A stretch of 64,000 nucleotides of DNA, taken from positions 1 through 64,000 of IMG/VR virus record IMGVR_UViG_3300025608_000017. The stretch is one strand, 5' to 3'. This DNA comes from a virus. Taxonomy: Duplodnaviria; Caudoviricetes. Shown here one piece after another: positions 2-62,683 of the stretch. The position numbers and the translations under genes are program-made. The notes beneath the pieces were generated by a model, which saw only the letters and a list, made by a program, of their open reading frames with translations, had not been told where the DNA came from and did no database searches. Position 1 is the first letter of the stretch. Each line of letters starts with the position of its first letter.

Positions 2-1042
2 GTCATACAATGCTGCTCCGCTAAAAAATTCTTTGTTTAGTTTTGTGCGTTGCTTTTCAAGACTCACAAGATAATCATCATAGTTTTCCATGTAGTCACG
101 AATCTTAGCAACAAGCTCGCCACGATGCTGACGATATGTGCTGTAGTCTTCTGTCCACTTGCTGGGATATGTAAACTCTGGCACAGCCATTTCACTGTAG
201 CTCAGTCTATCAGGAACAACAGGAATAGCATCTACAAGTGCGCCTTCATACCAGCTAATGCCCAGTGTTTCCTGCAAGTTAGCTGAGAACACCATCTTAG
301 CTTCACCCAACAAGTTGTGATACTCGTTCTTAGTAAGCTCACGTTCTTGACACACTACAAATTCATATTCAGGAAGTTGTTCAGCTAGGTCACGGAAAAT
401 GTCTACTTGCTTCTCTGGTGCTACACGATGCGGGAACAAGATAAGATCTCGCTTTTCCATTCCTGTGTATTGTATAAGACTGTCTTTCAAATACTCCATA
501 GGCCAGCCTACTTTGATCGCTTTGTCCATGTCAACATCATAATTGTCCATCATAGTGTCTGTAAACAAATCAATATGAAAGTCAGTGGCATAGAAGTTGT
601 CATCGTAGCACTCGTACATTGACATTTCAGCATGTCTAACCCAAGGTTTATCTCCTATGAGACGACCCAAGAAGTCATGAGGATCATAACTACCAGCATG
701 CCAAAGGCCACCGATTCCAATGTCGACCCCAAGGAGTTCAGCCATGTAGCGCAACTGGATAACAGTTGGGTTCCACGCATCCGTATATAGGAAATAATCT
801 CCATCTTTAATTTCTCCGTTACAAAACATCTCGCCAATTTGTTCGAGTTGTTTAGATTTATAAACGTTAGTACCACCGAAGTTAAGGAAAGCCCCAGGCG
901 TAGTTGCCTGAGGCGTTTCCCCACCACTAATAACAACTACATTGTCATTTGTAGCGTGACGCAGTTGTTTGGGCAAATGTTCTTTCCATTGCTTAGTATA
1001 ACGTGTGTCTACTGCTTCGATGTCGACAATGTAGATGGTCAT
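2..1042 (-). CDS. GT-B fold glycosyltransferase (GT4-like), runs off the left edge
   Basis: Not in the ORF track because it has no stop in the window. Manual translation from ATG 1042: MTIYIVDIEAVDTRYTKQW...LWHAGSYDPHD...FPHRVAPEKQ...VFSANLQETLGISWYEG. The E-x7-E motif (ETLGISWYE) is typical of retaining GT4 enzymes. Confidence 0.75.
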   Translation of the reverse strand, partial: MTIYIVDIEAVDTRYTKQWKEHLPKQLRHATNDNVVVISGGETPQATTPGAFLNFGGTNVYKSKQLEQIGEMFCNGEIKDGDYFLYTDAWNPTVIQLRYMAELLGVDIGIGGLWHAGSYDPHDFLGRLIGDKPWVRHAEMSMYECYDDNFYATDFHIDLFTDTMMDNYDVDMDKAIKVGWPMEYLKDSLIQYTGMEKRDLILFPHRVAPEKQVDIFRDLAEQLPEYEFVVCQERELTKNEYHNLLGEAKMVFSANLQETLGISWYEGALVDAIPVVPDRLSYSEMAVPEFTYPSKWTEDYSTYRQHRGELVAKIRDYMENYDDYLVSLEKQRTKLNKEFFSGAALYD

Positions 1043-1044
1043 AA

Positions 1045-1284
1045 TTAGTTACTCCGGTTGTTATTGCGTGGTGTAAACTTGCGTTCGCGTTGAACAAAGT
1101 CTTTGCCGCCGTTTCGTGCTTTTGCTCGTAGCCAGCCTTGATACTTTTGATAGGCAATCCAATTAGGATCATCCTTCTTATAAAGTGCTGCTTCATCAAA
1201 CACTTTGCCTTCAAAACGACAATAATCACGATATTGATCGAGATCGTTAAAAACTTTATTCACTGCTGGATTAGCAATTGTCAT
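1045..1284 (-). CDS. hypothetical protein
   Basis: 79 aa ORF packed in the operon between the DpdL-like gene and the GT. Confidence 0.7.
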   Translation of the reverse strand: MTIANPAVNKVFNDLDQYRDYCRFEGKVFDEAALYKKDDPNWIAYQKYQGWLRAKARNGGKDFVQRERKFTPRNNNRSN

Positions 1285-1299
1285 AATATATTCCTCTTG

Positions 1300-1740
1300 T
1301 TATGACTTGGGATAAAAAATAGAACAGCCATTTTCGTTATCTTCAGCTACGCTGATCTCTACAAAGCGGCCGGGATACTTTGCAGCGATTTCTTGATACA
1401 AGTCATCTGCGATCATCTCACAGCTCTTGTGGTCTAACTCTAGTACGCCTTCGACGTCATAGAGTCGTTGCATCCAGCGTTTAAACTGAATGAACTCAAT
1501 GTCGCGATCATTATGAAATACTTCAATACGAACACGAAAGTGAAAGATATGACGATGCGGAATGCCAAGGAATGATACATCATCCCAATCGCCTGTTGCT
1601 AGTTTAGGATCAGTATCTGCGCCTGGGTACATATGTACACCTTCTTTAGCGAAAGTTACCCAAATACTACGTTGTGCTGTGTCCATGTTTCTCTCTTCTT
1701 TTAATTTACGTAACATGTAATCGTGATAGCGTTCTTGCAT
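1300..1740 (-). CDS. dpdL: QueD-like T-fold protein with the DpdL (CDG decarboxylase) signature
   Basis: FLGIPHRHIFHF matches LxxxHRHxF, the motif I recall for DpdL, rather than the QueD CxxxHG[HY] motif. It also has HNDRDIEF and SCEMIA...EDNENG T-fold motifs. Confidence 0.7.
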   Translation of the reverse strand: MQERYHDYMLRKLKEERNMDTAQRSIWVTFAKEGVHMYPGADTDPKLATGDWDDVSFLGIPHRHIFHFRVRIEVFHNDRDIEFIQFKRWMQRLYDVEGVLELDHKSCEMIADDLYQEIAAKYPGRFVEISVAEDNENGCSIFYPKS

Positions 1741-1746
1741 AATACT

Positions 1747-1775
1747 ATTATACCTTCAATCAATGACTGTGTCAA
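1747..1775 (-). promoter_or_regulatory. consensus sigma70 promoter TTGACA-N17-TATAAT for dpdL/GT
   Basis: Exact consensus read on the minus strand, overlapping the 3' end of the upstream ORF. Confidence 0.8.
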
Positions 1776-2283
1776 GTCCATAATCGTTCCAATCTGTATA
1801 AACTTTACGATCCATTAGATTGTGTACGCTATGACACCACACTCCGCTATTTGTATCGCCCCATGTGTTGTCATCTAGCTTAACAGTTGCATTATAATTG
1901 AACTGTTTAATGTAAGGAAGTTTGACACTAATCATACTAATAAAGTTATTGTATTCATCATATCCAGATTCTAATACACCATAACTGTATACTGCATCAA
2001 AGTCTAGTGTACACCAGTAGCCTTCTTTGAGAAGTGGCATAATCATGTCTTCCCATGCTTGCCAGTCTGCTGCATCTTCTGGAAGATTTAGACCGGGAGT
2101 AAAGCTCTGGCTAGTTCCAAAGTATAGATGCTTGATGCCGTGAGCGTCTGCACGTTTTTTAATTTCTTCTGCAGGTTGTACACCTACAACAAACAGTGTT
2201 TGCTCACCGTACATAGCAGTATGCTCGACTTCAGTACCAATAAAGTATACTACATCTTGTCTTTCTTCAGTGTTTAGTCCCAT
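1756..2283 (-). CDS. hypothetical protein in the deazaguanine locus
   Basis: 175 aa globular ORF (YFIGTEVEHT, HLYFG, WCTLDFD, GVWCH). Family not recognised. Confidence 0.7.
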   Translation of the reverse strand: MGLNTEERQDVVYFIGTEVEHTAMYGEQTLFVVGVQPAEEIKKRADAHGIKHLYFGTSQSFTPGLNLPEDAADWQAWEDMIMPLLKEGYWCTLDFDAVYSYGVLESGYDEYNNFISMISVKLPYIKQFNYNATVKLDDNTWGDTNSGVWCHSVHNLMDRKVYTDWNDYGLDTVID

Positions 2284-3200
2284 TTGATATAACCTCTGCT
2301 GTAGCCGTTAGGACGATTTAGTCCATCGTCAAATGCTTGTTGCCATTCCGTACTTCTATTATACGCTTTAGTCCAGAAGTTGTCAACTATTAATTGCTCA
2401 TTAGTGATCCATTTTTCGGCACACACCATTGCATCAATAAAACATTCTGCTCTCGGACTGGGAAAAACAATAGTACAGGCTTTCCAAAGTAGGTTGCCGT
2501 AATCACTTGTTAATTGCTTCTGCACTCCTAGCACCAACAATGCTTCGTTGGTATATTCAACAGCATCCAACACGTCTGTTCTTGAACTTAGGTCTATAAC
2601 AACATCGTAACTTCCAACAGGCTCACTCTGTAAAGTGTCTCCCCATAGCTCTCTGTTATAGTTGCCTACAACATCAACAGCTTCAAACTTGATATCAAGT
2701 AGTTCTAAAGTTTTGTATACAATTTGTGCAAGAAAGCCACTGCCTAAAATAAGACAGCGTTTGCCTTCGCCTGCCCGAACTTTGATTGCATCTAACGGTT
2801 GCATCACAACATTAATGCCACATGCAACAGGTTCTAGGATGTATTTAGGCTCAGCACTGGGAACAGGAACATATTCATTTGCTCTACAATTGTAGTAGTC
2901 TGCATATGCAGGCTCGCCCCTTGTTGCTACATAATCACCAACACCGACATTACTGATGTTGTCTCCTACTTGTGTAACAACACCCAGTCCTTCGTGTCCT
3001 TGCATACTCAGTGGAAGCGGCCCGAAGTTTCCCAGCATCATTTCTAAATCGCTACGACACACTCCGGTCATGACAGCTTTAACTTCTATCTCATCCGCAG
3101 TGTGCGCAGGCTTGGTCCATTCGATTTCTTCGAACTTGCCTTTGCCTGTTGTGCTTAACAGTTTAACTTTCATAGTGCCTCTATTTGCTGATGAATCCAA
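2274..3200 (-). CDS. Zn-dependent alcohol/polyol dehydrogenase (MDR superfamily)
   Basis: GVCRSD, GHEGLG and LEP catalytic Zn ligands; GSGFLA Rossmann loop; no structural-zinc Cys lobe. Confidence 0.85.
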   Translation of the reverse strand: MDSSANRGTMKVKLLSTTGKGKFEEIEWTKPAHTADEIEVKAVMTGVCRSDLEMMLGNFGPLPLSMQGHEGLGVVTQVGDNISNVGVGDYVATRGEPAYADYYNCRANEYVPVPSAEPKYILEPVACGINVVMQPLDAIKVRAGEGKRCLILGSGFLAQIVYKTLELLDIKFEAVDVVGNYNRELWGDTLQSEPVGSYDVVIDLSSRTDVLDAVEYTNEALLVLGVQKQLTSDYGNLLWKACTIVFPSPRAECFIDAMVCAEKWITNEQLIVDNFWTKAYNRSTEWQQAFDDGLNRPNGYSRGYIKWD

Positions 3201-4036
3201 ACATCTTGTGACAATTGTTCACGCCAGAACTCATTGTTATTTAGGTTGTCCACAGCATCTTGTATCATATTTTTGTATGCACTTTCTGGACACCAACCTA
3301 GGTCAATAACAGTATCTTTGTCAAATCTAATACAACTTTCTTCTTTAGTCATATCTCGCCAATTTGCTTCAAGATGCCATTTGTTGTCATATTGCAAACT
3401 ACTAAAGTCGTCTACATCATGTGTGCCTTGACGGTTGATAGTGCCGTAGTCAGTGCTGTCAACTTCATCCAATTGCCATTGCTGTTTACTTTGTTTTTCA
3501 CTTGCAGATGTATTGTTCCAGTCCGTATTCATTACAATGTACAAGCTTAAAAGATGAGGCAATAAGTCTCTGCTCACGCCGCCGTATGCTAATTCTTTAT
3601 TAGTAAACCAACTGCCAGGATTAGGAATACAGTTCTTTCTAATCCAGTTAATGTCTACACGATTGCTCTGAGTTGCTAGAGACTTCATTTCAGAAATGTT
3701 GTCTCTCCACATATTATTCTTTACCATCATAATACGTGTATCGGGAAAACTGTTACACACAGTTTTCCATTCATTGCTATCTTTAAAGCCAGGCTTTTCT
3801 ACAAACACAATATCAGCATGTGGCGCAACAAGTTCTGTAATTTCTTTGTGTGTAAAATTAGGAGTACACACATTAACAGTGTCAAAGTGTCCGTGAACTT
3901 CTAGTGCAGTTTCCACTCTAACATAATCAGGGTCTTTGCTCGGATCAGTATCTACAGTTACTACACTGTATCCTAAACTAGATAGCACAGACTTGTATAA
4001 TCCGCCTATGCCCATTCCTATTACAAGACTTTTCAT
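3170..4036 (-). CDS. Gfo/Idh/MocA family oxidoreductase
   Basis: IGMGIG Rossmann loop, VCTPNFTH, VFVEKP, GGVSRDLLPH motifs. Confidence 0.85.
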   Translation of the reverse strand: MKSLVIGMGIGGLYKSVLSSLGYSVVTVDTDPSKDPDYVRVETALEVHGHFDTVNVCTPNFTHKEITELVAPHADIVFVEKPGFKDSNEWKTVCNSFPDTRIMMVKNNMWRDNISEMKSLATQSNRVDINWIRKNCIPNPGSWFTNKELAYGGVSRDLLPHLLSLYIVMNTDWNNTSASEKQSKQQWQLDEVDSTDYGTINRQGTHDVDDFSSLQYDNKWHLEANWRDMTKEESCIRFDKDTVIDLGWCPESAYKNMIQDAVDNLNNNEFWREQLSQDVWIHQQIEAL

Positions 4037-4155
4037 TCTTCTTCCTTAACTAAGAAGTGAACCTTAACAACACCATCTTTGTTCTTTTTAATATAGTATT
4101 CAAGACCTGCGTCTCTAAATATTTTTTTAAGTTCGTCGAAGGTATGTTCTTTCAT
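4033..4155 (-). CDS. small hypothetical protein (40 aa)
   Basis: Manual: MKEHTFDELKKIFRDAGLEYYIKKNKDGVVKVHFLVKEEE, with ATGA overlaps on both sides. Confidence 0.6.
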   Translation of the reverse strand: MKEHTFDELKKIFRDAGLEYYIKKNKDGVVKVHFLVKEEE

Positions 4156-4361
4156 TCTAAACCTTTTTGTAGCAAGTATGCATTGATTCGATGCATTTCA
4201 TCTTTTAGATAAAGTTTCATAGTTTTCATTCTACGAACTTCATCTGTTACTGTCATATTATTATACTTGGTTTCAAGTTCTTCGTCAAGTTCTTTGTGCT
4301 TGCGACTTAGTTCATCATAATGTGCTAAAAGTTTATCTTTAGTTTCATTATAGTTGCTCAT
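4152..4361 (-). CDS. small coiled-coil protein (DUF465/YdcH-like)
   Basis: LSRKHKELDEEL...KTMKLYLKDEM pattern; likely start is MSNYNE at 4361. Confidence 0.55.
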   Translation of the reverse strand: MSNYNETKDKLLAHYDELSRKHKELDEELETKYNNMTVTDEVRRMKTMKLYLKDEMHRINAYLLQKGLE

Positions 4362-5883
4362 CCAAATTCTCCAACTTAGTTTCGTCAAAAGTTTCTTCGT
4401 CGTCTGAAACTTTTGGCTCTTCTACATCAAATAGTGCATTAAAATGTGTGCTAGCATTTACTGTTTTCTTGCCAACCGCGCCGCGTGTGCCAGGAATCTG
4501 CATCCACAATCTACTGTGATCTTCTATTATTTTATTTGCTTCTTCTCTAGTTTCAGCAGCAAAAACAGCATTGATAACATCTCTGCTGTAGAGTTGATCA
4601 AATTTTTCATTCACCAGCATTGCAGGAACTTTTCCTTCGTCATATTGACGATTTGCTTCTTGTACAGCGTTTAGATGCATCCATACATTGTGTGCCATTA
4701 GAATTGCATAACTAAAACTATCCCACGAAGTTCTACCTTCCTTGCCAATTCTGTTTAGATCACCAGGTGCATAAATGCACACGTCTTTGGTTAAGACATC
4801 GTTCATAACTGGACTATTAGAAAAGTTTTTATGATGACCGTCTTGGACCACAGCATCTCGGAACAGTCTTGTATCCTGTGCATACTTCTTGTCATCTAAT
4901 GCTGCTGCCATTCGATATGACCACTTGCCGCGATCTTCTATTTCAAGTTCGGTGTAGACCTGACCGTTTGCAGTTGCAAGAAACGGACTAGCACAATCAA
5001 AACTAATAGTAAATTTAGGATTATGATACTTGCGCACAGCACGTTGAATGTCGGTTAGAACCAACGCCCACTCTAGTTTGCTTGTACCCAAGAAGTGCAT
5101 CCAGTCGTGCAGTCCTTCTTCTAGCAATCCATCAAAGCGTAGTGCAACCAAACGTTTAAGAACCAAGTGTACGTCACACATGTTCTGTCCGCCCATGCCC
5201 CAACCATTGAAATGATTGTCTGGATATATCTTTGGATCACAGAACTTCTTCATACGATCATACCAATCGTCGGCATCTGCATGATTCTCGCCTTGTAGAA
5301 CGTTTAAGAATTTGCAATTGCCGTTTCTGTTTTGGATAAAGTACTCATTATTAATTTCAGTAGCTTTGCATGCTTCTTCGTATGTGCTAATGCCTGTAGC
5401 TTTTTGACCTTCTGGTGACCGAGCAACCCATGCCGGAATATCCAAGCACATACCATAGTCCATTAGGCTGTCCATCCAAGTCAACACTTGTTTGCGCTTT
5501 TTCATAGCAGCAGGACAGTTGGGATCTTTCCAGTCAGCGGGCCATTTGCCTTTACCAATCTGGAATCCACCTGAGTCGCCTAATACCCAACTATCGCCAT
5601 TACGTGGGCGTTTGCGGAACATATCTTCTCTATCATCTTGCTTGTTTAAATCAAGATTAGCATGTCCTGCAGAGTACAAACACCATTTGTAATAGAGTAA
5701 CGGACTTTTAGGATCCAAGTAATTGATACTTTCTACATCGTTTGTAAAGTTTTTAGGCAGTCTAGAAGGTTCAATATACGGATACCTATTTCTCTGATAT
5801 CCAACGAATGCTGAGTAAAATCCGGATGTTGCCGGTAAAAATAGTGCATAATCACTTTGTGTTGATGTTAAGTCTTTGATCAT
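4348..5883 (-). CDS. dpdA: DpdA-family 7-deazaguanine DNA transglycosylase (TGT fold)
   Basis: TGT motifs DSGGFQ, LDIP, VLQG, GWGMGG, HFLGTS, SFDCASP, in a phage locus with QueD-like genes. Subfamily not assignable by eye. Confidence 0.8.
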   Translation of the reverse strand: MIKDLTSTQSDYALFLPATSGFYSAFVGYQRNRYPYIEPSRLPKNFTNDVESINYLDPKSPLLYYKWCLYSAGHANLDLNKQDDREDMFRKRPRNGDSWVLGDSGGFQIGKGKWPADWKDPNCPAAMKKRKQVLTWMDSLMDYGMCLDIPAWVARSPEGQKATGISTYEEACKATEINNEYFIQNRNGNCKFLNVLQGENHADADDWYDRMKKFCDPKIYPDNHFNGWGMGGQNMCDVHLVLKRLVALRFDGLLEEGLHDWMHFLGTSKLEWALVLTDIQRAVRKYHNPKFTISFDCASPFLATANGQVYTELEIEDRGKWSYRMAAALDDKKYAQDTRLFRDAVVQDGHHKNFSNSPVMNDVLTKDVCIYAPGDLNRIGKEGRTSWDSFSYAILMAHNVWMHLNAVQEANRQYDEGKVPAMLVNEKFDQLYSRDVINAVFAAETREEANKIIEDHSRLWMQIPGTRGAVGKKTVNASTHFNALFDVEEPKVSDDEETFDETKLENLDEQL

Positions 5884-6240
5884 TTAATTCCCTATCAAGT
5901 TTTGTGATATTACCATCATACTCAGCCAAATCCATAATGTATTAAATCCAACAAGTGTAGGTAACAATTTTTTGTTACTTGCCCATATAAGAGACAGGCT
6001 AGTAACCAGTGCTACAAAATATAATTGCCAAATATTCACACCGAATATTAATGCAGGAATAATGATAATAGCTTTTGCAATCCAACTAGCAGCTTCGATA
6101 ATATTGTAATTGGTCCAGTAAGAACGTGTAAACCACATTTTATAACATTCAAGAACATTACGCCAGCCGGTTACAGTATAAACAGCACTAGTCAATAACA
6201 ACCAGCTGACGATAGCAAATATTACTTGAGTTTGTGTCAT
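5884..6240 (-). CDS. small multi-pass membrane protein
   Basis: 118 aa with about 4 hydrophobic segments. Confidence 0.7.
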   Translation of the reverse strand: MTQTQVIFAIVSWLLLTSAVYTVTGWRNVLECYKMWFTRSYWTNYNIIEAASWIAKAIIIIPALIFGVNIWQLYFVALVTSLSLIWASNKKLLPTLVGFNTLWIWLSMMVISQNLIGN

Positions 6241-6243
6241 ATT

Positions 6244-6987
6244 TTATTTGCTCTGCGCTGGAAGAATGTAACTGTATTCTGCAAGTCCGCTATCAACTGT
6301 GATCTTCATAGCGCCTTGATCTGAAATACTCATTGTAACATCACCGCTCAAGTTTAGAATTGCTTGTACAGCAGCCACAGGCCAACTCCATGTGTGTTGT
6401 AGTGTACCTTCTACAGCGTTCTGAAACACAAACTCGCCTGCGTGTGTACTTGCATCGCCAAAGCTAAACACGAGATCATTTGTGCCACCAGTTGCTTTAG
6501 TAGTAACATTGAATGTAGGTTCTTCGTTGTGTGCAGCACTCATCAGTTTCATACGTCCGATACTAGCAACACTAGGTTTAAACTCTACTGCCCATGCAGC
6601 ACCTTTAAATGTAACAGTTTTTAACTTCTCTTCGATAATTGCTTTGTTCATAAAGCGATAATCATTTTGGAAGTCACCTGTTGCATTTTCAAAGTGAATG
6701 TGCGTAGGAATTGTTTCACCATTGCGTTCTGCTTGTACAACTTCAATTTTAGCATCCGTTTTATATTCTGGATTCTTTAGGTGTAGTGCAAGCTTGTCTA
6801 GGTTAGGCATACCAAATGTGCCTGTGAACTCGTTAACTGCATTATGTGTAGTTGCACTTAGAATTACACTGCGATCTTCTGCCATCGAGTCAACTTTTGT
6901 TTCACCGTTATCCGATGTAACTTTAACCAGTGGCAAAAATCCTAGTGCATGTGTGTGTGCAACTACGTCTTGTAAAATATCTTTCAT
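6244..6987 (-). CDS. DNA polymerase sliding clamp (gp45/PCNA-like)
   Basis: 247 aa with clamp-like size and beta-rich pattern (SMAEDRSVIL, C-terminal YSYILPAQ); polB and a clamp loader are in the window. Confidence 0.65.
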   Translation of the reverse strand: MKDILQDVVAHTHALGFLPLVKVTSDNGETKVDSMAEDRSVILSATTHNAVNEFTGTFGMPNLDKLALHLKNPEYKTDAKIEVVQAERNGETIPTHIHFENATGDFQNDYRFMNKAIIEEKLKTVTFKGAAWAVEFKPSVASIGRMKLMSAAHNEEPTFNVTTKATGGTNDLVFSFGDASTHAGEFVFQNAVEGTLQHTWSWPVAAVQAILNLSGDVTMSISDQGAMKITVDSGLAEYSYILPAQSK

Positions 6988-7754
6988 ACTGTTTCTCCAT
7001 TGAATATGTTTATTATATTGCCTTTGTCTTCATTTGTCAAGAACTTTTCTACCGTGTATTTAGGTTCAAAGCCCAGTGCCTTCATTTTTTGTGTGTTAGC
7101 ACATGTCCAACTTCTTTCTCCTGGGGTATTTAGACGCACCGGTAAGTCCGGAGCCAAGTCTTGGATCCTAACAGGATTCCCCGTGCCAATATCAACTACA
7201 CCTTTAACGTGTGTAGCCTTTATTAATATTTCAATTGCATCTAGTACATCTTCTAGATGAATAAAATCTCTATAGTGGTTAGTTACGTATTCTAGTGTGC
7301 CGTTGCGTAACTTGTTAAAGAACATATTTTCTCTAGGACAACTATCGCTATACACTGTATGAAAACGCATACCCACATGATCTGTACCGTAGCGTTCTGC
7401 AAGTTCTTCCATGATGAACTTACTAGCTGCATAAGGGTTCAAATCGGGCTCGTAAGCACTCGAACTGCTCGCATACAGTATACGTGTACCTTCATAGCGT
7501 TCGAATAGTCTACGGGTTGCTTCTACGTTGTTGTTCCAATATCCTGCAGGGTCTGTAAAACTTTCACGTACACCACTTTTGCCTGCTAAGTGAATAACAA
7601 GATCGGTGTCGTCTTGCCATCTATCATACGTAAGTAAATCAAACTGAGGACCATTCTTTACGTCAACGCCAAATACATTGTGCCCTCTGTTAATAAGACG
7701 TTTAAATAACGCTGTTCCAATAAAGCCTTTATGACCCGTTAATAGAATATTCAT
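6984..7754 (-). CDS. NAD-dependent nucleotide-sugar epimerase/dehydratase (extended SDR)
   Basis: TGHKGFIG, HLAG, ASSSS, YAASK, RFHTVY, RDFIHLED motifs. Confidence 0.9.
   Translation of the reverse strand: MNILLTGHKGFIGTALFKRLINRGHNVFGVDVKNGPQFDLLTYDRWQDDTDLVIHLAGKSGVRESFTDPAGYWNNNVEATRRLFERYEGTRILYASSSSAYEPDLNPYAASKFIMEELAERYGTDHVGMRFHTVYSDSCPRENMFFNKLRNGTLEYVTNHYRDFIHLEDVLDAIEILIKATHVKGVVDIGTGNPVRIQDLAPDLPVRLNTPGERSWTCANTQKMKALGFEPKYTVEKFLTNEDKGNIINIFNGETV
7012..7040 (-). promoter_or_regulatory. consensus sigma70 promoter TTGACA-N17-TATAAT for clamp to dpdA
   Basis: Exact consensus inside the 3' end of the epimerase gene. Confidence 0.8.
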
Positions 7755-8458
7755 GCTGCTATACCTTGTTCTTGAAATATTTGCAAATACTCCATAGTCT
7801 GTTTCCAGCCGTCTACTTTTCTAAAATGTTTTACTACATTTGCTATAGGAAGATCATTACCGCCTTCATAGATAGCGTCACCAAAGAACCAAGTAGTATC
7901 TTCTTTGTCAAAGTCTTTTATGATTTGACTCTTATCAAAACCTTTAGGGCTAATATCAATACCTGTTTCGCCACCAACTTTTGCTTCTAAGTCAGGAAAC
8001 ATTGTATTAAATGCTGTTGCAATTGTATTACGTTCGTTTGTAGATGTGTCGTATGCTACATACTCTTGACGTTGTTCTGCATCAGCACCACGTCCTACTA
8101 CACTAAAGTTTACCATACCAGGGCGTTTTTCAATATGAGTACCTGTGCGCAAGTTAAATCTACTTTCGTACAAACAACCATTTAAAAAGTATTCAGCAAA
8201 CTCTGGTAATGTCCAATCGTTTGTATGAACGTGTGTTGCGCCTTTCCAAACGTCATTTCCGTTGCATTGATAAACACGTTTACATAGAATATAAGTGTCT
8301 TCGCCTAGTTGCTCGATGGTTTTAGACTTGTCACTGCCAGTAACTAGATAAACGTCATTACTCAAACAAAAAGAATTAAAGAACATTTTAAAATGTATGT
8401 CAATAATACCTCTGCTAGGTGTTAGTGTACCGTCTACATCAAATATAAATTTATTCAT
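7751..8458 (-). CDS. HAD IIB phosphomannomutase-like enzyme
   Basis: FDVDGTLT, LVTGSD, IEKRPGMVNFSVVGR, GGETGIDI, FFGD...GGND (eukaryotic-type PMM motifs). Likely start is MNKF at 8458. Confidence 0.85.
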   Translation of the reverse strand: MNKFIFDVDGTLTPSRGIIDIHFKMFFNSFCLSNDVYLVTGSDKSKTIEQLGEDTYILCKRVYQCNGNDVWKGATHVHTNDWTLPEFAEYFLNGCLYESRFNLRTGTHIEKRPGMVNFSVVGRGADAEQRQEYVAYDTSTNERNTIATAFNTMFPDLEAKVGGETGIDISPKGFDKSQIIKDFDKEDTTWFFGDAIYEGGNDLPIANVVKHFRKVDGWKQTMEYLQIFQEQGIAA

Positions 8459-8609
8459 AATCGCAATATGCAACCTCATTATTTTCAAACATTGTTTCTA
8501 GTACAGCTTGTTCAATATGACAACTCATAGCAGTCTCAAACTCTGCATAATGAGTTACCTTAGGTTCTTCAAGTCCGATAACTGTGCTAACAATCCAAAG
8601 TGTCCACAT
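8451..8609 (-). CDS. small hypothetical protein (52 aa)
   Basis: Manual: MWTLWIVSTVIGLEEPKV...; overlaps both neighbours in coupled fashion. Confidence 0.55.
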   Translation of the reverse strand: MWTLWIVSTVIGLEEPKVTHYAEFETAMSCHIEQAVLETMFENNEVAYCDYE

Positions 8610-9022
8610 CACTGTTCTCTTTCTGCTACTCGCTTGCGCAAATCACTTGAACTAAAACGGTGATCACGCTTGTTAAAATGCAAGTCTATATCGCGGCGTC
8701 TACAAATATCCTTACCTGTAAAGTCTTTGTCACGATACTCCTCTCCTAATATTCTAACATGAATATTGTACATTGTCAAGATATCTTCTAGATCTTTTTC
8801 TGTACCATAGGGGATAATCTCATCAACATACTTAACTGCTTTGAGTTGTGTGTAACGCTCTACAACAGTTTGTATAGGAGCGTTTTTTTCAGCACGATCA
8901 ACGCTAGGATCTACCTGCAATCCGCAGATCAAATAGTCGCATTGTTCTTTTGCTTCACGCAACATTTGTACGTGTCCTGCATGACAAAGGTCAAACGTAG
9001 ATGCTGTAAAACCTACTCTCAT
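8609..9022 (-). CDS. TagD-like cytidylyltransferase (HxGH nucleotidyltransferase)
   Basis: TFDLCHAGH, VERYTQL...VDEIIPY, GEEY, RDHRFSSSDLR motifs. Confidence 0.85.
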   Translation of the reverse strand: MRVGFTASTFDLCHAGHVQMLREAKEQCDYLICGLQVDPSVDRAEKNAPIQTVVERYTQLKAVKYVDEIIPYGTEKDLEDILTMYNIHVRILGEEYRDKDFTGKDICRRRDIDLHFNKRDHRFSSSDLRKRVAEREQ

Positions 9023-57175: not shown

Positions 57176-57381
57176 TTTCTTCTAAAAAGATCAGCAGCAT
57201 TACACTGCGGTTGAGCTCTACAATTTCTAATATTATTCTCCCACATAATTTGATCTGGCATCCAATCAAACTCGGGTAGATCTCTATAAGTATTAGCAGA
57301 ACTATTACATCCTGCTAACAATACAGCTAAAACTACTATAGATAAATGTACTACAAATATAGAATGCAGTAGTCTAATCAT
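57172..57381 (-). CDS. small putative lipoprotein
   Basis: Hydrophobic signal with lipobox LAGC; two further Cys. Confidence 0.55.
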   Translation of the reverse strand: MIRLLHSIFVVHLSIVVLAVLLAGCNSSANTYRDLPEFDWMPDQIMWENNIRNCRAQPQCNAADLFRRN

Positions 57382-58648
57382 TTCCGGCTATCATCCTTTG
57401 TGATTTAAGTTTGTTGTATCCCTCATCGTCTAAGTGTGTAATAGCAAGCCAAGCATGTGTCATCTCATCGCCTGTGCGTGAGCCGCCCATTACCCACATA
57501 TCTGGATCCGGATTGTTTGGATTGTCTGAGGTATTGTCATACCACTGTTTTAATATAATAACTGCGCCTGCAGGTATTAATGGTGCCACTTCAGGAGCAT
57601 ACAAATGGCTGTGATGCCATGTTGCGCTCCACTTAGAGATTTGACTCACTGCTTCTGTTCTACCAGTTTCAGGATAGAAAATTTCTAGACTTGCTGCATT
57701 CATGCGCAAGTGACCGTGTGGTTGGAAACTATCTAAACGCACAGGATGGTCGAAAGAATGGAAACCTTGTGTCATTGCATATCCATTGGGTGGGATAACC
57801 AGATCGTCCTGATCCCCTAAGCGATACAAACTCAAATCTTGTTTGTATTTTAATTGTTGGCTTTCCTCTTCTGTGTATAACCAAAGACCAATCTCTACCA
57901 CATTGTCTTTGATGACAGAACCTGGGGCCATTGCTCCAAGACCACCTGGGAACATGTGAATATCCCAACTGATTTGTGCGTCTGCGGGGATCGTACGGCA
58001 GACTCCTTCTGGTACAATCTCTCCCCACTTTCCCATAGCATACTCAGTGAGCATGCCTTCACGCCCTTCTGCTGTGAGAATACTTGAGTTAGCGTGATGT
58101 ACTACTGACTTGGCTGCACCTCGTGGTTTGACTTGAACTGCTTTGATACATCTGTCTTGAGTAATACCACTTGGTACTAAATGCTTGTGCCATAGATCAT
58201 TGCCGTTTGCAGGAATGTCTATTGCTACACTAGGAATGATTGCGTCTGGTGTTCCAAAGTCACCTTCAAAGTTCCATGCTTCCGGATCTCTAATTGGAGG
58301 TGCTTGTACAGCAACGTCTTGGTCACCGTACTGTGCGCCTGAGTTTACCCACGCAACAACTGTGTCAATATCTTCTTGTGATAAACGCCAGTCGCCTTGT
58401 AGGTCTTGTATGCCTATACCGTGATCGTAAGCATACGGAGGCATTTCTCTATTTGCTACTTTTAATTGTATAAGAGGTGCCCATGGGCGTACCTGCTCAT
58501 AGGTTTCAAAACTCATAGGTCCTATGCCGCCTTGACGGTGACACACAACACAATTGTTGTTGATAATTTCTGCTACTTCGTTTGTGTAAGTTTGTGCTGA
58601 TACAGCAAAGGGAAACAGCACAGCGAATACTGCGATAATGTGTTTCAT
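57374..58648 (-). CDS. secreted heme-c domain + type II copper monooxygenase (PHM/DBH-like)
   Basis: Signal peptide; CVVCH; VVHHAN (CuH); PHGHL and GDEMT (CuM). Confidence 0.8.
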   Translation of the reverse strand: MKHIIAVFAVLFPFAVSAQTYTNEVAEIINNNCVVCHRQGGIGPMSFETYEQVRPWAPLIQLKVANREMPPYAYDHGIGIQDLQGDWRLSQEDIDTVVAWVNSGAQYGDQDVAVQAPPIRDPEAWNFEGDFGTPDAIIPSVAIDIPANGNDLWHKHLVPSGITQDRCIKAVQVKPRGAAKSVVHHANSSILTAEGREGMLTEYAMGKWGEIVPEGVCRTIPADAQISWDIHMFPGGLGAMAPGSVIKDNVVEIGLWLYTEEESQQLKYKQDLSLYRLGDQDDLVIPPNGYAMTQGFHSFDHPVRLDSFQPHGHLRMNAASLEIFYPETGRTEAVSQISKWSATWHHSHLYAPEVAPLIPAGAVIILKQWYDNTSDNPNNPDPDMWVMGGSRTGDEMTHAWLAITHLDDEGYNKLKSQRMIAGND

Positions 58649-58735
58649 ATATAATTCTCCTGGGAACTATTAATATTTAAACACATTATCGCAGTATTGC
58701 AACCTCTTTCGGCAAGAAGTTACAATTTATTACAT

Positions 58736-58969
58736 TTAGCTTCTTGAAGGGTATATACCCTCTAATGCAATAATTGCTTTACAGCCGTTTAGATCTTCTA
58801 TTTTAGGTAAGGCAAATGTTGTTCTACCATCGCCGCCATAGGTTGTACCTAATATACTAAACAATGCTTCCCATTCTGCAATAGGCAGTAGTTGATGTTG
58901 GCAAAATGACCAACCTCTTGGAGCAAAGTTACCTGCAAAGTATTTTACTTCTCCTACAAACGGTTCCAT
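58736..58969 (-). CDS. phage tail collar domain protein
   Basis: FVGEVKYFAGNFAPRGWSFC...LFSILGTTYGGDGRTTFALP. Confidence 0.88.
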   Translation of the reverse strand: MEPFVGEVKYFAGNFAPRGWSFCQHQLLPIAEWEALFSILGTTYGGDGRTTFALPKIEDLNGCKAIIALEGIYPSRS

Positions 58970-59133
58970 TATTCAGCCTTCCAAATTGTCCAAGCACCAT
59001 AAGCAATAGCGCCATAAGCAACTAGAGCAGCGATTGGTTTAAAAATTAAAAACGCAATACCTGCGCCAATTAGTACTGCGCCGTCGAGTGTTGTTCTTTC
59101 TTCTAGTCTTTTCTTAATCCATGCTTTAACCAT
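58969..59133 (-). CDS. small membrane protein (54 aa)
   Basis: Manual: MVKAWIKKRLEERTTLDGAVLIGAG... Confidence 0.6.
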   Translation of the reverse strand: MVKAWIKKRLEERTTLDGAVLIGAGIAFLIFKPIAALVAYGAIAYGAWTIWKAE

Positions 59134-59190
59134 TTTTAAATCTCCTGTGTAAAATATTTAGTAAATAATAGTTCCTTAAGGAGGAAAACT

Positions 59191-59481
59191 ATGTTTAAAT
59201 GGATGAAAAACTTATTTGTAAAAGCAGAGGATGTAGCAATTCCAGCACAAAAATTATCTGATATTGCTCCCAAAGCAGTTACAACTAAAAAAGCAGTAAA
59301 AGTAGAAAAGGTTGTTGAAGTTGACGCAAAGACTGTAAAAGTCACTAAAGCAGGTTTATCAAAGTTAACTAAGCAAGGCTTAGAAGACTTTGCAAAATCT
59401 AATTATGGTGTTGACATTGACAAACGTAAAAAGAAACCTGACCTAGTTAAAGAAGTATTAGCACTTTCTAAGAAGGCCTAA
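59191..59481 (+). CDS. Lys-rich protein with Rho-N/SAP-like helical C-terminus
   Basis: SD GGAGG; LSKLTKQGLEDFAK...KKPDLV; GTAAATA upstream. Confidence 0.6.
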   Translation: MFKWMKNLFVKAEDVAIPAQKLSDIAPKAVTTKKAVKVEKVVEVDAKTVKVTKAGLSKLTKQGLEDFAKSNYGVDIDKRKKKPDLVKEVLALSKKA

Positions 59482-59755
59482 TCATACCCTTTAGCTGTTC
59501 AATTGCAGTTTCACAGCGAGTCAGCTTACGCTCTAATACAGTAATAGCTGCTCGCTGTTTTCTTGACTGCTCTTCCAAACTGCGCACATAAGCTTCTGTA
59601 GGAATCTTTTGTACACTTCCATCTTCACCTAACATTTCAAACATGTCAGCGCCTTGCGCACGTAATCCACCTGCTACACGATTAGGATTCTTGTCAGATG
59701 ATGACTGGGTCTGGGTTGGATTTTTTCTTCCGTACATTTGATTCAAATAGCTCAT
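59468..59755 (-). CDS. hypothetical coiled-coil protein
   Basis: Likely start is MSYLNQ at 59755. Confidence 0.6.
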   Translation of the reverse strand: MSYLNQMYGRKNPTQTQSSSDKNPNRVAGGLRAQGADMFEMLGEDGSVQKIPTEAYVRSLEEQSRKQRAAITVLERKLTRCETAIEQLKGMIRPS

Positions 59756-60782: not shown

Positions 60783-60812
60783 AATGTGTGCCTATTCGTT
60801 TATTGTTTAATT

Positions 60813-60841
60813 AGTATAACACTGTTAACGCCAGTTGTCAA
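60813..60841 (-). promoter_or_regulatory. sigma70 promoter TTGACA-N17-TATACT
   Basis: Near-consensus, upstream of uvsE. Confidence 0.75.
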
Positions 60842-61405
60842 CTATCTTGTAGTATTAAAACTGATAACTGTACGGGCATCATTGTTATTTTTGTCAGTGT
60901 AGTGCTCTAGCCAACTAGGGAATATCACCAACAAGTCCTCATAGCAAGGAATACAATGTTGGTACTCGTTAAATGGACTGTCTGTTGAAAAAATATCGTT
61001 CATCCTATATGGCTTCAATGGACTTGAAAAATATAAATTTGACGAACCTTCTGGTGCATTAATATAATACGCTCCACTTAATACACTTCCTTCGTGCCTA
61101 TGCGGCACAACACTGCCTCCATCATTCATTCGATTAAACCAGCTATTTCCGACTTTTAAAGGAGAATAACCGCCAACCGAAGCGTATTGCTTAATATTAT
61201 TAGAAATATCTGTTTTTAATTCAATTAAATCGGGATGATCTAATATTGGAGAGGATGAAAAGCTACTGAGTCCGTTATCTAATAAGTCGTGATCTGTTAA
61301 CTCTGTATTTTTTATTATTTCCAAAGCTCTTGTCTTACAAGAATGATTGCTCATATCTACTAACATTACTGCTGTTGGGAATATGCTTATTATTTTGTTA
61401 TCCAT
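60842..61405 (-). CDS. putative 2OG-Fe(II) oxygenase (TIGR02466-like)
   Basis: PHRHEGSVLSGAYY, FPSWLEH, RTVISFN. Confidence 0.8.
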   Translation of the reverse strand: MDNKIISIFPTAVMLVDMSNHSCKTRALEIIKNTELTDHDLLDNGLSSFSSSPILDHPDLIELKTDISNNIKQYASVGGYSPLKVGNSWFNRMNDGGSVVPHRHEGSVLSGAYYINAPEGSSNLYFSSPLKPYRMNDIFSTDSPFNEYQHCIPCYEDLLVIFPSWLEHYTDKNNNDARTVISFNTTR

Positions 61406-61406
61406 A

Positions 61407-62234
61407 TTATATCCAATTGTCTATTACCCATTGATCTTTGCAGTTGTGCGGATTAGGATCACCATGAAATACTGCTACACTTGTTGCATCTTTAATCACA
61501 GGATCGCCGTTCTTTTCAAAGTCACGCTGTCCCCTAGGCTTGTTGTTGTAACGAGGTTTGCCACGCATTTCCCACTTGTAGCTTTCGATCCATTCATCAG
61601 GCCAATATGCATAAGTGCCATCTTTAACAGTTGCTCGAATCCAGTCTTGATCACCGTGATAGCGTCTGATAGGAATGTTTGGGCTTTTGATAAAGTCTGT
61701 GTACACTGCACTGTGTTGTCCGGTATTAAGCCTAAAAATACTGCTATTAAATTTGTTGTAGTTACGTATCATAGATCTATTAAAATCACGTATGATACAG
61801 AATTTTCCCGGCTCATATGTAAACAGGTGATCGATATTTCTAAAGATCACAACATCAAGGTCAAAGAAAAGAATTGTCCCGTTTAAACCTAGTTTGGGAT
61901 TAAAGAACATAGGCTTATACCACCAACCTTGTACACCTGCAATTGGCGGCAACGGCTCAATTCTAATCTCACTGTCAATGTCTGTAGGATTTTCTGTATA
62001 GCACACAAACTCAAACGGAACTGTTAAGTTACGCTTTACCATAGAGTAAAGTTTATTAACATATTCCGCCGAGTATTTGTTGCCGTACTTTAAACAGACT
62101 ACATAATTATTTCTAGTTGTTCTCAATGGTGTAGTAGAAGGCAAAGAATTACTTACTGATTTCTTTTTTTCTTTGTCGAGTGCTTTTCTTGCTCGACGCT
62201 GATCCTTAGTTTCTCCATTGATATACTTTTTCAT
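61407..62234 (-). CDS. GT-A fold glycosyltransferase
   Basis: CLKYGNKY, WYKPMFF, FFDLDVVI (DxD), NSSI, GDQDWI, VFHGDPNPH (GT8-like). Confidence 0.75.
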   Translation of the reverse strand: MKKYINGETKDQRRARKALDKEKKKSVSNSLPSTTPLRTTRNNYVVCLKYGNKYSAEYVNKLYSMVKRNLTVPFEFVCYTENPTDIDSEIRIEPLPPIAGVQGWWYKPMFFNPKLGLNGTILFFDLDVVIFRNIDHLFTYEPGKFCIIRDFNRSMIRNYNKFNSSIFRLNTGQHSAVYTDFIKSPNIPIRRYHGDQDWIRATVKDGTYAYWPDEWIESYKWEMRGKPRYNNKPRGQRDFEKNGDPVIKDATSVAVFHGDPNPHNCKDQWVIDNWI

Positions 62235-62683
62235 TATGCTTCGTAGATAGCTGAGTTAGCGCCGTGCTCTGCACATTCTACCTTTACACAATAACAACGA
62301 CCGTCTGTTGCTTCTCGAATCAGTTTGTCAGCAAAGTAAAATGCGTGTTCTGCAAACTTCTCTGCACCTACACCGCCAAACTCTCTTACTTCACATAATC
62401 CTTTTTCTTGTAGATCATAAAAGTCTTGTTTGTGTGGATCGTTAAAGTCTACACATAGTTTGTGATCGAAGTTTTCTTCCAGCCATGCTTTGAGTGGCTT
62501 TAGCCCACCAAAGTCTACTGCCCAGTTTTTATTGTCTAGATAATCACATCCAAATGTAAATGTAAATGCTAGACTGTAACCGTGTAGTAGATGACAGTGT
62601 GAATGATCTGCGTTAGGTTGACGGAACACCGCTGATAGTCCGATGTTGTGTCCGTAGTGTTTTGTGCTTAGATGTCTTGCCAT
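62234..62683 (-). CDS. queD: 6-carboxy-5,6,7,8-tetrahydropterin synthase
   Basis: CHLLHGY (CxxxHGY), VDFGGLK, FDH, AEKFAE, EHGANSA. Confidence 0.88.
   Translation of the reverse strand: MARHLSTKHYGHNIGLSAVFRQPNADHSHCHLLHGYSLAFTFTFGCDYLDNKNWAVDFGGLKPLKAWLEENFDHKLCVDFNDPHKQDFYDLQEKGLCEVREFGGVGAEKFAEHAFYFADKLIREATDGRCYCVKVECAEHGANSAIYEA

What the first reader, a model, noticed from the sequence alone, without database searches (positions are those of the whole stretch)
2..5883. Candidate pathway for a sugar- or polyol-hypermodified 7-deazaguanine in phage DNA
Seen: one tightly coupled minus-strand run reads dpdA-like transglycosylase, two tiny ORFs, Gfo/Idh/MocA oxidoreductase, Zn-dehydrogenase, unknown 175 aa, DpdL-motif T-fold protein, 79 aa, GT4-like glycosyltransferase. 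A canonical queD lies at 62 kb. Established: phage DpdA swaps guanine in DNA for 7-deazaguanines (preQ0, preQ1, ADG, G+, CDG, DG and methyl/formyl-preQ1) made through FolE/QueD/QueE. To my knowledge no glycosylated DNA deazaguanine has been characterised. Inference: the oxidoreductase pair and the GT build and attach a sugar or cyclitol to the inserted base, loosely analogous to glycosyl-queuosine in tRNA, as anti-restriction armour. Caveat: DpdL yields side-chain-free DG, so the GT acceptor may be CDG, another base, or not DNA at all.
Basis: partly seen in the sequence, partly recalled or inferred. Interest (0 to 1): 0.9.

Follow-up and report, generated by a model that had tools for sequence, protein, structure and literature searches.

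The report
Sugar enzymes inside phage deazaguanine genes
An uncultured giant marine phage carries the genes that replace guanine in its DNA with a 7-deazaguanine, and among them sit a sugar-transferring enzyme and two sugar-type dehydrogenases. This suggests, without chemical proof, a sugar-bearing DNA base that I found described in no paper.

Summary
The gene run exists as described. The 511-aa protein is a divergent DpdA: hhalign gives 95.6% to the DpdA3 group, which in turn matches E. coli TGT at 92.8%. The 146-aa protein carries the DpdL motif LxxxHRHxF. The 347-aa protein (351 aa in full) is a confident GT-B/GT4 fold with its donor-binding residues conserved.

New here:
- The Gfo/Idh/MocA and Zn-ADH pair is missing from most close relatives (1 of 63 loci has it). 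Wherever it occurs in IMG/VR it lies inside the same module. Where the contig is long enough, DpdA is present in 75/75 loci, ADH in 75/75, the 175-aa protein in 65/66, DpdL in 55/55 and the GT in 48/48.
- The trio Gfo, ADH and 175-aa protein also occurs in Pseudomonas phage PA5oct.
- The GT lies beside DpdL in PA5oct, Phosso, ACP17, X1 and BCSR5.
- A 97%-complete 33-kb phage has a GT orthologue with the motifs intact but no DpdA, DpdL or QueE. The acceptor is therefore not proven to be a deazaguanine.

QueC is absent from near-complete relatives, so the pathway stops at CDG or DG. No chemistry is known; PA5oct DNA has an unidentified modified G. This scan has noted the GT-in-deazaguanine-cluster pattern many times on other DNA (512 notes).

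Verdict: a real, testable candidate for a new hypermodification.

The parts
2..1042 (-). GT-B/GT4-fold glycosyltransferase (347 aa here, 351 aa in full; the C-terminus is cut by the contig end)
   Evidence: AF2 model with pLDDT 96. VIA Z 25-27 to retaining GT4 enzymes: sucrose-phosphate synthase, BshA, MshA. 28 of 50 family members hit PF00534. R206, K211, E258 and E266 (EX7E) are near-invariant. It lies next to DpdL in PA5oct, Phosso and ACP17 and within the same cluster in X1 and BCSR5.
1045..1284 (-). 79-aa basic protein (pI 9.7) of unknown function, conserved between dpdL and the GT in the marine/freshwater clade only
   Evidence: Present in 63 of 63 close loci and 52 of 80 Gfo-type loci. 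No family hit. No similarity to the PA5oct 86-aa ORF.
1300..1740 (-). DpdL-type T-fold protein (proposed CDG decarboxylase)
   Evidence: LGIPHRHIF fits LxxxHRHxF (motif from PMC10516641). phrog_17812, E 6.6e-31. 30-66% identical to the DpdL of phiST, ACP17, PA5oct and Phosso.
1756..2283 (-). 175-aa protein of unknown fold and function with a conserved GxEVE motif
   Evidence: Homologues in PA5oct (next to Gfo-ADH) and ACP17 (next to DpdA). Possible remote relatives in X1 and BCSR5. AF2 pLDDT 74; best structural Z 6.5, which is not significant. No profile match to QueE.
2274..3200 (-). Medium-chain Zn-dependent dehydrogenase (MDR)
   Evidence: PF08240, 46.5 bits. C48, H69, E70 and G153-x-G155 are invariant in 53 homologues. 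Follows Gfo in 75 of 75 loci.
3170..4036 (-). Gfo/Idh/MocA oxidoreductase, nearest to enzymes that oxidise sugar or cyclitol ring hydroxyls
   Evidence: PF01408, 24.5 bits. Weak NCBIfam hits to levoglucosan, xylose and inositol dehydrogenases. Best PDB hit is DgpA, E 2.4e-4. K81-P82 and D157-x3-H161 are invariant in 59 homologues. Follows DpdA in 75 of 75 loci.
4152..4388 (-). DUF465 small coiled-coil protein, conserved after dpdA
   Evidence: PF04325, 31.3 bits. Present in all 63 close loci.
4348..5883 (-). Divergent DpdA (TGT-superfamily DNA guanine transglycosylase), related to DpdA3
   Evidence: D103-S-G-G-F-Q108, D148, H263-x-L-G266 and D296 are invariant. hhalign to the DpdA3 group gives Prob 95.6%, E 1.2e-8, and that group matches E. 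coli TGT at Prob 92.8%. Homologues lie beside QueF/QueC/FolE in Vibrio phage 2.275.O and near QueE in PA5oct.
5884..6240 (-). 118-aa predicted membrane protein between the clamp gene and dpdA (optional)
   Evidence: Hydrophobic sequence. No family hit. Present in 21 of 80 Gfo-type loci and absent in L007.
6244..6987 (-). Sliding-clamp-like protein that precedes dpdA in this phage, PA5oct and Vibrio 2.275.O
   Evidence: blastp 29-35% to the PA5oct, Phosso and Vibrio 2.275.O proteins. The Phosso homologue is annotated as a sliding clamp but lies beside dpdL/GT rather than beside its dpdA-like gene.
6984..9022 (-). Nucleotide-sugar supply genes: SDR epimerase/dehydratase (6984-7754), PMM-like HAD (7751-8488), cytidylyltransferase-like (8609-9022)
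   Evidence: PF01370 97.9 bits, PF03332 85.7 bits, PF01467 54.9 bits. Conserved upstream of the clamp gene in L007, L022 and L042.
62234..62683 (-). QueD/PTPS-family protein with motif CxxxHGY
   Evidence: PF01242, 45.9 bits. Sequence.
1747..1775 (-). Perfect sigma-70 consensus promoter-like site just upstream of dpdL. Similar sites lie at 2358-2386 and 7012-7040, and an 11/12 site at 4260-4288.
   Evidence: This is a pattern match only.

Best explanation
The locus is a QueC-less 7-deazaguanine DNA-modification module extended by sugar chemistry.

Proposed order of events:
1. FolE and QueE (just beyond the contig end in close relatives) and QueD (at 62 kb) make 7-carboxy-7-deazaguanine (CDG).
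2. The DpdL-type T-fold protein converts CDG, with decarboxylation to 7-deazaguanine as the proposed reaction.
3. The divergent DpdA3-related transglycosylase swaps the base for guanine in phage DNA.
4. The GT4-fold enzyme, fed by the adjacent mutase, nucleotidyltransferase and epimerase genes, most likely adds a sugar to the deazaguanine-derived base, either before or after insertion.
5. In this phage and a large sister clade, the Gfo/Idh/MocA and Zn-dehydrogenase pair further changes that sugar. The likely chemistry is oxidation of a ring hydroxyl to a keto group followed by reduction, giving an epimer or a modified sugar.

The result would be a sugar-bearing purine that shields the DNA from host nucleases.

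Shown here: the gene identities, folds, conserved catalytic residues and linkage.
Inferred: every chemical step, the acceptor atom and the sugar.
For: Identity of the deaza core:
- The DpdL motif and homology.
- DpdA by profile comparison and by genomic context.
- FolE, QueE and MetK lie downstream of the GT in L007, whose GT is 89% identical.
- QueC is absent from five relatives, including a 96%-complete 356-kb genome.

The GT is a true enzyme:
- pLDDT 96 and Z 25-27 to GT4 enzymes.
- The R/K pair and the EX7E motif are conserved across 50 diverse members.

Linkage of the GT:
- It lies within the deazaguanine cluster in PA5oct, Phosso, ACP17, X1 and BCSR5.
- It does so in 5 of 5 distant IMG/VR lineages that have upstream sequence.

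Linkage of the dehydrogenases:
- DpdA 75/75, ADH 75/75, 175-aa protein 65/66, DpdL 55/55 and GT 48/48 in Gfo-bearing contigs, down to 51% identity.
- Their catalytic residues are invariant.
- The nearest solved relative, DgpA, oxidises a sugar hydroxyl of a glycoside (the function is from my own knowledge).

Other support:
- Sugar-nucleotide genes lie next door.
- A TS-family hydroxymethylase is absent from the 96%-complete relative, so hmC/hmU is an unlikely acceptor there.
- PA5oct, which has the module, has a modified G of unknown structure and resists all nucleases tested.
- Cui et al. could not obtain dDG in E. coli from ACP17 dpdA plus dpdL alone, and suggested that other enzymes may be needed.
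Against: - 7-deazaguanine has no hydroxyl or amine at C7 to accept a sugar, and no conserved hydroxylase accompanies the GT in the minimal clusters.
- phiST reaches dDG with DpdL and without any GT.
- Seven DpdL-bearing phage lineages show no GT by tblastn.
- A 97%-complete 33-kb phage has a GT orthologue with the motifs intact but no DpdA, DpdL, QueE or TGT.
- The dehydrogenase pair is absent from most close relatives.
- The GT family's conserved acceptor-domain residues include many acidic ones, and the protein has pI 4.7. This is not what one expects of a DNA-binding face, although DpdA here is also acidic.
- There are no mass-spectrometry data for any member.
Confidence: 0.42

Rival explanations
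1. The GT (and here the dehydrogenases) act on something other than a deazaguanine: another DNA position, a phage or host protein, or a host envelope glycan. They sit with dpdA/dpdL only because both belong to the early replication and anti-defence block. The DNA then carries plain dDG or dCDG.
For: - A GT orthologue with the motifs intact occurs in a 97%-complete 33-kb phage without DpdA, DpdL, QueE or TGT, next to a SAM methyltransferase.
- phiST makes dDG without a GT.
- DG offers no obvious acceptor atom.
- In PA5oct the Gfo, ADH and 175-aa trio lies 26 kb from dpdA.
Against: - The gene order differs between lineages (DpdA-GT-DpdL, GT-DpdA-DpdL, DpdL-GT), yet the GT stays inside the cluster.
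- The Gfo pair lies between dpdA and dpdL in 75 of 75 contigs.
Confidence: 0.27
2. The GT works on a free small-molecule intermediate (CDG, DG or a pterin precursor), and the sugar either is removed later or marks a by-product. The final DNA base then carries no sugar. GT4 enzymes often take small acceptors.
For: - The best structural matches are small-molecule GT4 enzymes: BshA (malate), MshA (inositol phosphate), sucrose-phosphate synthase and LmbT.
- The conserved acceptor-domain residues are rich in acidic and aromatic side chains.
- HuiG, a GT, N-glycosylates a free 7-deazapurine in huimycin biosynthesis.
- A Gpt-like PRTase travels with the module in the marine clade and in PA5oct, which hints at free-base handling.
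Against: - No hydrolase that would remove the sugar is conserved in the module.
- A wasteful transient glycosylation has no precedent in deazaguanine pathways.
Confidence: 0.16
3. A pterin-glycoside-like route. DpdL acts as a PTPS-like enzyme on a pterin, the two dehydrogenases reduce a keto side chain (as sepiapterin reductase does), and the GT glycosylates the resulting diol (as cyanobacterial BGluT does). The product is a pterin glycoside or, after QueE, a 7-(dihydroxyalkyl)-deazaguanine glycoside.
For: - The T-fold, reductase and GT4 trio mirrors PTPS, SR and BGluT.
- A BH4 glucosyltransferase appears among the GT4 structural matches, at rank 47.
- This route would supply the hydroxyl acceptor that DG lacks.
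Against: - DpdL lacks the catalytic Cys of QueD/PTPS.
- Most GT-bearing clusters have no dehydrogenases.
- phiST DpdL goes with unsubstituted dDG.
- The BGluT match is no better than that of any other GT4.
Confidence: 0.06

Closest known systems
DpdL/DpdA3 dDG system of Cellulophaga phage phiST (Cui, Hutinet et al. 2023, PMC10516641)
   Same: FolE, QueD and QueE without QueC. A T-fold protein with LxxxHRHxF. A TGT-superfamily DNA transglycosylase related at the profile level.
   Different: phiST has no GT, no 175-aa protein and no dehydrogenases. Its DpdA3 is 259 aa against 511 aa here. Its product, dDG, has been measured; nothing has been measured here.
Pseudomonas phage PA5oct (Wroclawvirus) and Acidovorax phage ACP17 deazaguanine clusters
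   Same: DpdA, GT, DpdL and QueE are adjacent in both. A homologue of the 175-aa protein is present in both. PA5oct also has Gfo, ADH and the 175-aa protein as a trio, plus a PRTase.
   Different: In PA5oct the trio lies 26 kb from dpdA. ACP17 lacks the dehydrogenases. Both are cultured, so both can be tested. PA5oct DNA has a modified G of unknown structure.
T4 alpha- and beta-glucosyltransferases acting on 5-hydroxymethylcytosine in DNA
   Same: A phage GT-B enzyme is proposed to add a sugar to a non-canonical DNA base as protection against nucleases.
   Different: The GT families differ. No T4 enzyme is among the top 50 structural matches. The T4 acceptor has a hydroxymethyl group, and no equivalent is evident here.
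QTMAN (GTDC1), the GT4-type enzyme that mannosylates queuosine in eukaryotic tRNA
   Same: A GT-B enzyme with a Glycos_transf_1-type C-terminal half acts on a 7-deazaguanine derivative in a nucleic acid (function from my own knowledge).
   Different: The QTMAN_N domain (PF12038) gives no match on this contig, even at E 10, nor in 50 family members. The QTMAN acceptor is the cyclopentenediol of Q, which this pathway cannot make.
HuiG of huimycin biosynthesis
   Same: A glycosyltransferase that glycosylates a free preQ0-derived 7-deazapurine.
   Different: HuiG belongs to a secondary-metabolite pathway in actinomycetes that has QueC and no DpdA. Homology to the phage GT was not tested.

Membership tests
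TGT/DpdA superfamily (DNA or tRNA guanine transglycosylases) | Catalytic Asp in a DSGGFQ-type motif and the nucleophile Asp in an FDC-type motif, in the right order and spacing | tested here: met
   D103-S-G-G-F-Q108, H263-x-L-G266 and D296 (SFDCASP) are invariant in 6-8 homologues. They align with the QG, LMGVG and FDCV motifs of E. coli TGT.
TGT/DpdA superfamily (DNA or tRNA guanine transglycosylases) | Match to the Pfam TGT model PF01702 | tested here: not met
   No hit in hmmscan at E 0.01 or in the six-frame search. DpdA3 was likewise found only by HHpred.
DpdA3 subfamily | Profile-level homology to phiST CGPG_00065 and its relatives | tested here: met
   hhalign A8 against A7: Prob 95.6%, E 1.2e-8, 180 columns. 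A7 against E. coli TGT: Prob 92.8%. The length (511 against 259-446 aa) and the insertions set this protein apart as its own branch.
DpdA3 subfamily | Exchanges guanine in DNA for a 7-deazaguanine | not testable with these tools
   Needs an enzyme assay or nucleoside mass spectrometry.
DpdL (proposed CDG decarboxylase) | T-fold protein with LxxxHRHxF in place of the QueD motif CxxxHGH | tested here: met
   LGIPHRHIF. H36, H62, H64, F66, H76, E108 and E133 are conserved with phiST DpdL.
DpdL (proposed CDG decarboxylase) | Co-occurs with FolE, QueD, QueE and DpdA but not with QueC | tested here: met
   FolE and QueE in L007. QueD in the window. No QueC above the cut-off in five relatives, one of them 96% complete.
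DpdL (proposed CDG decarboxylase) | Decarboxylates CDG | not testable with these tools
   Not shown biochemically even for phiST or ACP17 DpdL.
GT-B fold, GT4-like retaining glycosyltransferases | Two Rossmann-like domains superposable on GT4 enzymes | tested here: met
   pLDDT 96. Z 26.7 with rmsd 3.1 over 317 residues to 6kih. Z 26.1 with rmsd 2.7 over 303 residues to BshA.
GT-B fold, GT4-like retaining glycosyltransferases | Donor-binding R/K pair and the EX7E motif | tested here: met
   R206, K211, E258 and E266 are invariant or near-invariant in 50 diverse members. The meaning of the motif is from my own knowledge.
GT-B fold, GT4-like retaining glycosyltransferases | Match to Pfam Glycos_transf_1 (PF00534) | tested here: inconclusive
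   The window protein gives no hit. 28 of 50 homologues do, with a best E of 5.7e-9.
QTMAN/GTDC1 | N-terminal QTMAN_N domain (PF12038) | tested here: not met
   No match on the contig at E up to 10. None among 50 family members.
Gfo/Idh/MocA oxidoreductases | NAD-binding Rossmann domain with the EKP motif and the catalytic D-x3-H | tested here: met
   PF01408, 24.5 bits against a cut-off of 24. K81-P82 and D157/H161 are invariant in 59 homologues.
Medium-chain Zn-dependent dehydrogenases (MDR) | GroES-like domain with Cys/His/Glu zinc ligands and a GxGxxA/G nucleotide site | tested here: met
   PF08240, 46.5 bits. C48, H69, E70 and G153-S-G155 are invariant in 53 homologues.
QueD (CPH4 synthase) | PTPS fold with CxxxHGH | tested here: inconclusive
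   PF01242 is met at 45.9 bits, but the motif reads CHLLHGY, with the third His replaced by Tyr.

The most novel reading that the evidence does not exclude
A large, globally abundant group of jumbo phages, together with cultured PA5oct and ACP17, replaces guanine with a glycosylated 7-deazaguanine. This would be the first sugar-bearing purine in any DNA. The Gfo/Idh/MocA and Zn-dehydrogenase cassette in this phage would remodel the sugar, so that related phages carry different sugars on the same base, much as T-even phages vary their glucosylation.
Probability: 0.35. Interest if true: 0.9.

Novelty: new variant of a known kind. Interest (0 to 1): 0.72.

Why it matters
Eight 7-deazaguanine derivatives are known in phage DNA, and none carries a sugar. 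A glycosylated deazapurine would be a new class of DNA base. It could explain why PA5oct resists every restriction and CRISPR system tried.

The GT family is large: 1195 clusters at 50% identity and more than 8000 close metagenomic relatives. Whatever it does is therefore common in aquatic phages.

The optional dehydrogenase cassette suggests that the modification diversifies, which would bear on how defence systems that sense modified bases keep up. Two cultured phages make the question testable by routine nucleoside mass spectrometry.

Tried and rejected
- **Direct family searches.** Pfam, NCBIfam and PHROG scans of the GT, DpdA-like, 175-aa and 79-aa proteins gave nothing. So did phmmer and profile searches of the PDB for DpdA and for the 175-aa protein.
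hhalign probability was 0.3%, so this was rejected. The protein atlas added nothing for it.
- **175-aa protein compared with two neighbours.** It shows no similarity to phiST CGPG_00066 or to the Phosso protein annotated 'glycosylase'.
- **GT as a QTMAN family member.** There is no QTMAN_N match. I could not obtain a QTMAN sequence for a profile-profile test, because bacterial genome handles were unreachable.
- **hmC/hmU as the acceptor.** This is unlikely, because the 96%-complete relative has no TS-family gene.
- **Dehydrogenases elsewhere in close relatives.** None were found.
- **Complex prediction was not used**, because I claim no protein-protein binding.

Full report
**Setting.** The window is bases 1-64000 of an 84,153-bp linear IMG/VR contig rated 23% complete. 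Relatives reach 236-356 kb at 67-96% completeness. The virus is therefore a jumbo phage of roughly 350 kb. Almost all genes lie on the minus strand, and G+C is about 39%. The GT gene has more than 8000 close metagenomic relatives, some of them from Tara samples, so the group is abundant in aquatic samples.

**The observation.** The nine ORFs exist as described, with gaps of -41 to +15 nt. Only three have direct family hits: ADH_N, a marginal Gfo/Idh/MocA hit, and DUF465. The DpdL-like protein hits only the unnamed phrog_17812. The rest needed deeper tests.

**DpdA.**
- The 511-aa protein has no TGT Pfam hit and no PDB sequence match.
- Its homologues lie beside QueF, YhhQ, QueC and FolE in Vibrio phage 2.275.O, and near QueE in PA5oct.
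- Eight homologues keep DSGGFQ, a QG, an HxLG and an SFDC-type motif.
- A profile of the window-type family matches a profile of the DpdA3 group (phiST DpdA3, ACP17, X1, BCSR5) at 95.6%, E 1.2e-8.
- The DpdA3 profile matches E. coli TGT at 92.8%.
- I file the protein as a long, divergent branch related to DpdA3.

**DpdL.**
- The 146-aa protein reads LGIPHRHIF, the LxxxHRHxF signature that Cui et al. give for DpdL.
- It is 30-66% identical to DpdL of phiST, ACP17, PA5oct, Phosso and others.
- The QueD at 62 kb is a PTPS-family protein, but its motif is CxxxHGY.
- QueC is absent from five large relatives.
- FolE, QueE and MetK follow the GT in the 89%-identical relative L007.
- The precursor is therefore CDG, and DG is its proposed product.

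**Glycosyltransferase.**
- The family holds 1195 clusters at 50% identity.
- 28 of 50 members hit Glycos_transf_1.
- The model has pLDDT 96. It superposes on retaining GT4 enzymes at Z 25-27.
- R206, K211 and the EX7E pair E258/E266 are conserved.
- It is not a QTMAN_N protein.
- Its conserved acceptor-domain residues include many acidic and aromatic ones, and its best structural relatives take small acceptors. Whether it acts on DNA or on a free base stays open.

**Linkage of the GT.**

| Phage or group | Arrangement |
|---|---|
| PA5oct | DpdA-GT-DpdL ... PRTase-QueE |
| ACP17 | QueD-FolE-175-like-DpdA-GT-DpdL-QueE |
| Phosso | DpdL-GT-x-FolE ... QueE |
| X1 | FolE ... GT-DpdA-DpdL-QueE |
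| BCSR5 | DpdL ... GT-DpdA-x-QueE |
| Distant IMG/VR GT lineages | DpdL immediately upstream of the GT in 5 of 5 loci with enough upstream sequence; DpdA in 4 of them; FolE and QueE in the 4 long enough |

The gene order differs between lineages while membership persists, which argues for a functional tie. Part of the conservation among this phage, PA5oct, Phosso and Vibrio 2.275.O is shared ancestry, because the surrounding replication genes are syntenic too.

**The dehydrogenase pair, which is what is particular to this window.**
- Among 63 close loci that hold both DpdA and the GT, 57 read DpdA-DUF465-175aa-DpdL-79aa-GT. Only one, L007, has Gfo-ADH.
- Five relatives that are 34-77% complete have no homologue of either dehydrogenase anywhere. 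The pair is therefore dispensable for the module.
- A search with the Gfo protein found 141 viral contigs at 51-94% identity.
- In the best 80 of these, wherever the contig reaches far enough, DpdA precedes Gfo in 75/75. ADH follows in 75/75, the 175-aa protein in 65/66, DpdL in 55/55 and the GT in 48/48.
- PA5oct keeps Gfo, ADH and the 175-aa protein as a contiguous trio 26 kb from its dpdA.
- Catalytic residues are invariant in 53-59 homologues: EKP and D-x3-H in Gfo, and the Cys/His/Glu zinc ligands and GxG in the ADH.
- The nearest solved relative of the Gfo protein is DgpA, followed by inositol 2-dehydrogenase. NCBIfam gives weak hits to levoglucosan, xylose and inositol dehydrogenases, and for the ADH to a keto-inositol dehydrogenase.
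- I read the pair as a sugar or cyclitol hydroxyl oxidase/reductase couple that tailors the transferred sugar. This is inference.

**Sugar supply.** Upstream of the clamp gene lie an SDR epimerase/dehydratase, a PMM-like mutase and a cytidylyltransferase-like enzyme. Sister clades carry a UDP-glucose dehydrogenase-like gene in the same place.

**The 175-aa protein.**
- It is conserved with a GxEVE motif.
- It is present in PA5oct and ACP17.
- It has no recognisable fold.
- It is not related to QueE at the profile level.
- It is missing from the distant GT lineages, so it is not a universal partner of the GT.

**Counter-evidence.**
- One GT lineage (L178-L181) sits in small phages. The 33,093-bp record G008, rated 97% complete, has a GT with every motif kept.
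- G008 has no DpdL, no DpdA of either type, no QueE and no TGT. Positive controls rang for the DpdA and QueE profile searches, and the named control genomes rang for TGT; the DpdL search had no positive control.
- The gene next to that GT is a SAM methyltransferase.
- Seven DpdL lineages show no GT by tblastn, and phiST makes dDG without one.
- DG itself offers no obvious acceptor atom.
- These points hold my confidence in a glycosylated deazaguanine below one half.

**Literature.**
- I found no paper that describes a sugar-bearing deazaguanine in DNA.
[quoted passage not shown] It is reported to hold a modified G of unknown structure and to resist all nucleases tried in vivo.
- Cui et al. could not obtain dDG from ACP17 dpdA plus dpdL in E. 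coli and suspected missing enzymes. In ACP17 the GT lies between those two genes.

**Earlier work in this scan.** The pattern of a GT inside a DpdA/DpdL cluster has been noted many times on other DNA, with the same cautious verdict.

**Verdict.** The gene content is real, and the deazaguanine core is secure. The sugar step is a well-supported hypothesis with real counter-evidence, and the dehydrogenases are an optional tailoring cassette.

Noticed in passing
IMG/VR record G008 (loci L178, L192, L193); GT at L192:949-2010, methyltransferase at L192:2468-3166: A 33-kb, 97%-complete siphovirus-like phage (lambda-type tape measure, collagen-like and RCC1-repeat proteins) carries an orthologue of the GT directly followed by a class I SAM methyltransferase. 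It has no deazaguanine genes at all.
   Followed up: partly
window 7012-7040, 2358-2386, 1747-1775 (minus strand); 11/12 sites at 8751-8779 and 4260-4288: Three perfect TTGACA-17-TATAAT sites lie in 9.3 kb, each just upstream of a gene start (clamp, 175-aa gene, dpdL). This suggests strong host-RNA-polymerase promoters and several transcription units inside the 'operon'.
   Followed up: no
window 5884-6240 (minus strand): A 118-aa hydrophobic protein with no family hit is wedged between the clamp gene and dpdA. It is present in 21 of 80 Gfo-type loci and absent in the closest relative, L007. It could be a small transporter.
   Followed up: partly
window 62234-62683 (minus strand): The QueD/PTPS homologue has CHLLHGY where QueD has CxxxHGH, so one presumed zinc-ligand His is replaced by Tyr.
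   Followed up: no
L007:11581-15280; L022:11401-12954; L001:11425-12389: Downstream of the GT, relatives carry a Gpt-like phosphoribosyltransferase, in some a HIT-family protein and an unassigned 145-aa protein, then FolE, QueE and a SAM synthetase. PA5oct also has a PRTase and a truncated SDR epimerase between DpdL and QueE.
   Followed up: partly
window 57374-61405 (minus strand): Near queD lie a 2OG-Fe(II) oxygenase (60842-61405), a UvdE UV-damage endonuclease (59694-60782) and a protein with weak cytochrome c hits (57374-58648).
   Followed up: no
L042:4548-5297 and 43 of 80 Gfo-type loci: A short (249 aa) UDP-glucose/GDP-mannose dehydrogenase-like gene lies upstream of the clamp gene in the sister clade, in place of or beside the epimerase, PMM and cytidylyltransferase set. 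This hints at different sugar donors in different clades.
   Followed up: no
L001:10772-11149 (PA5oct DpdL): PA5oct DpdL reads HFH where all other DpdL proteins aligned read HRH.
   Followed up: no
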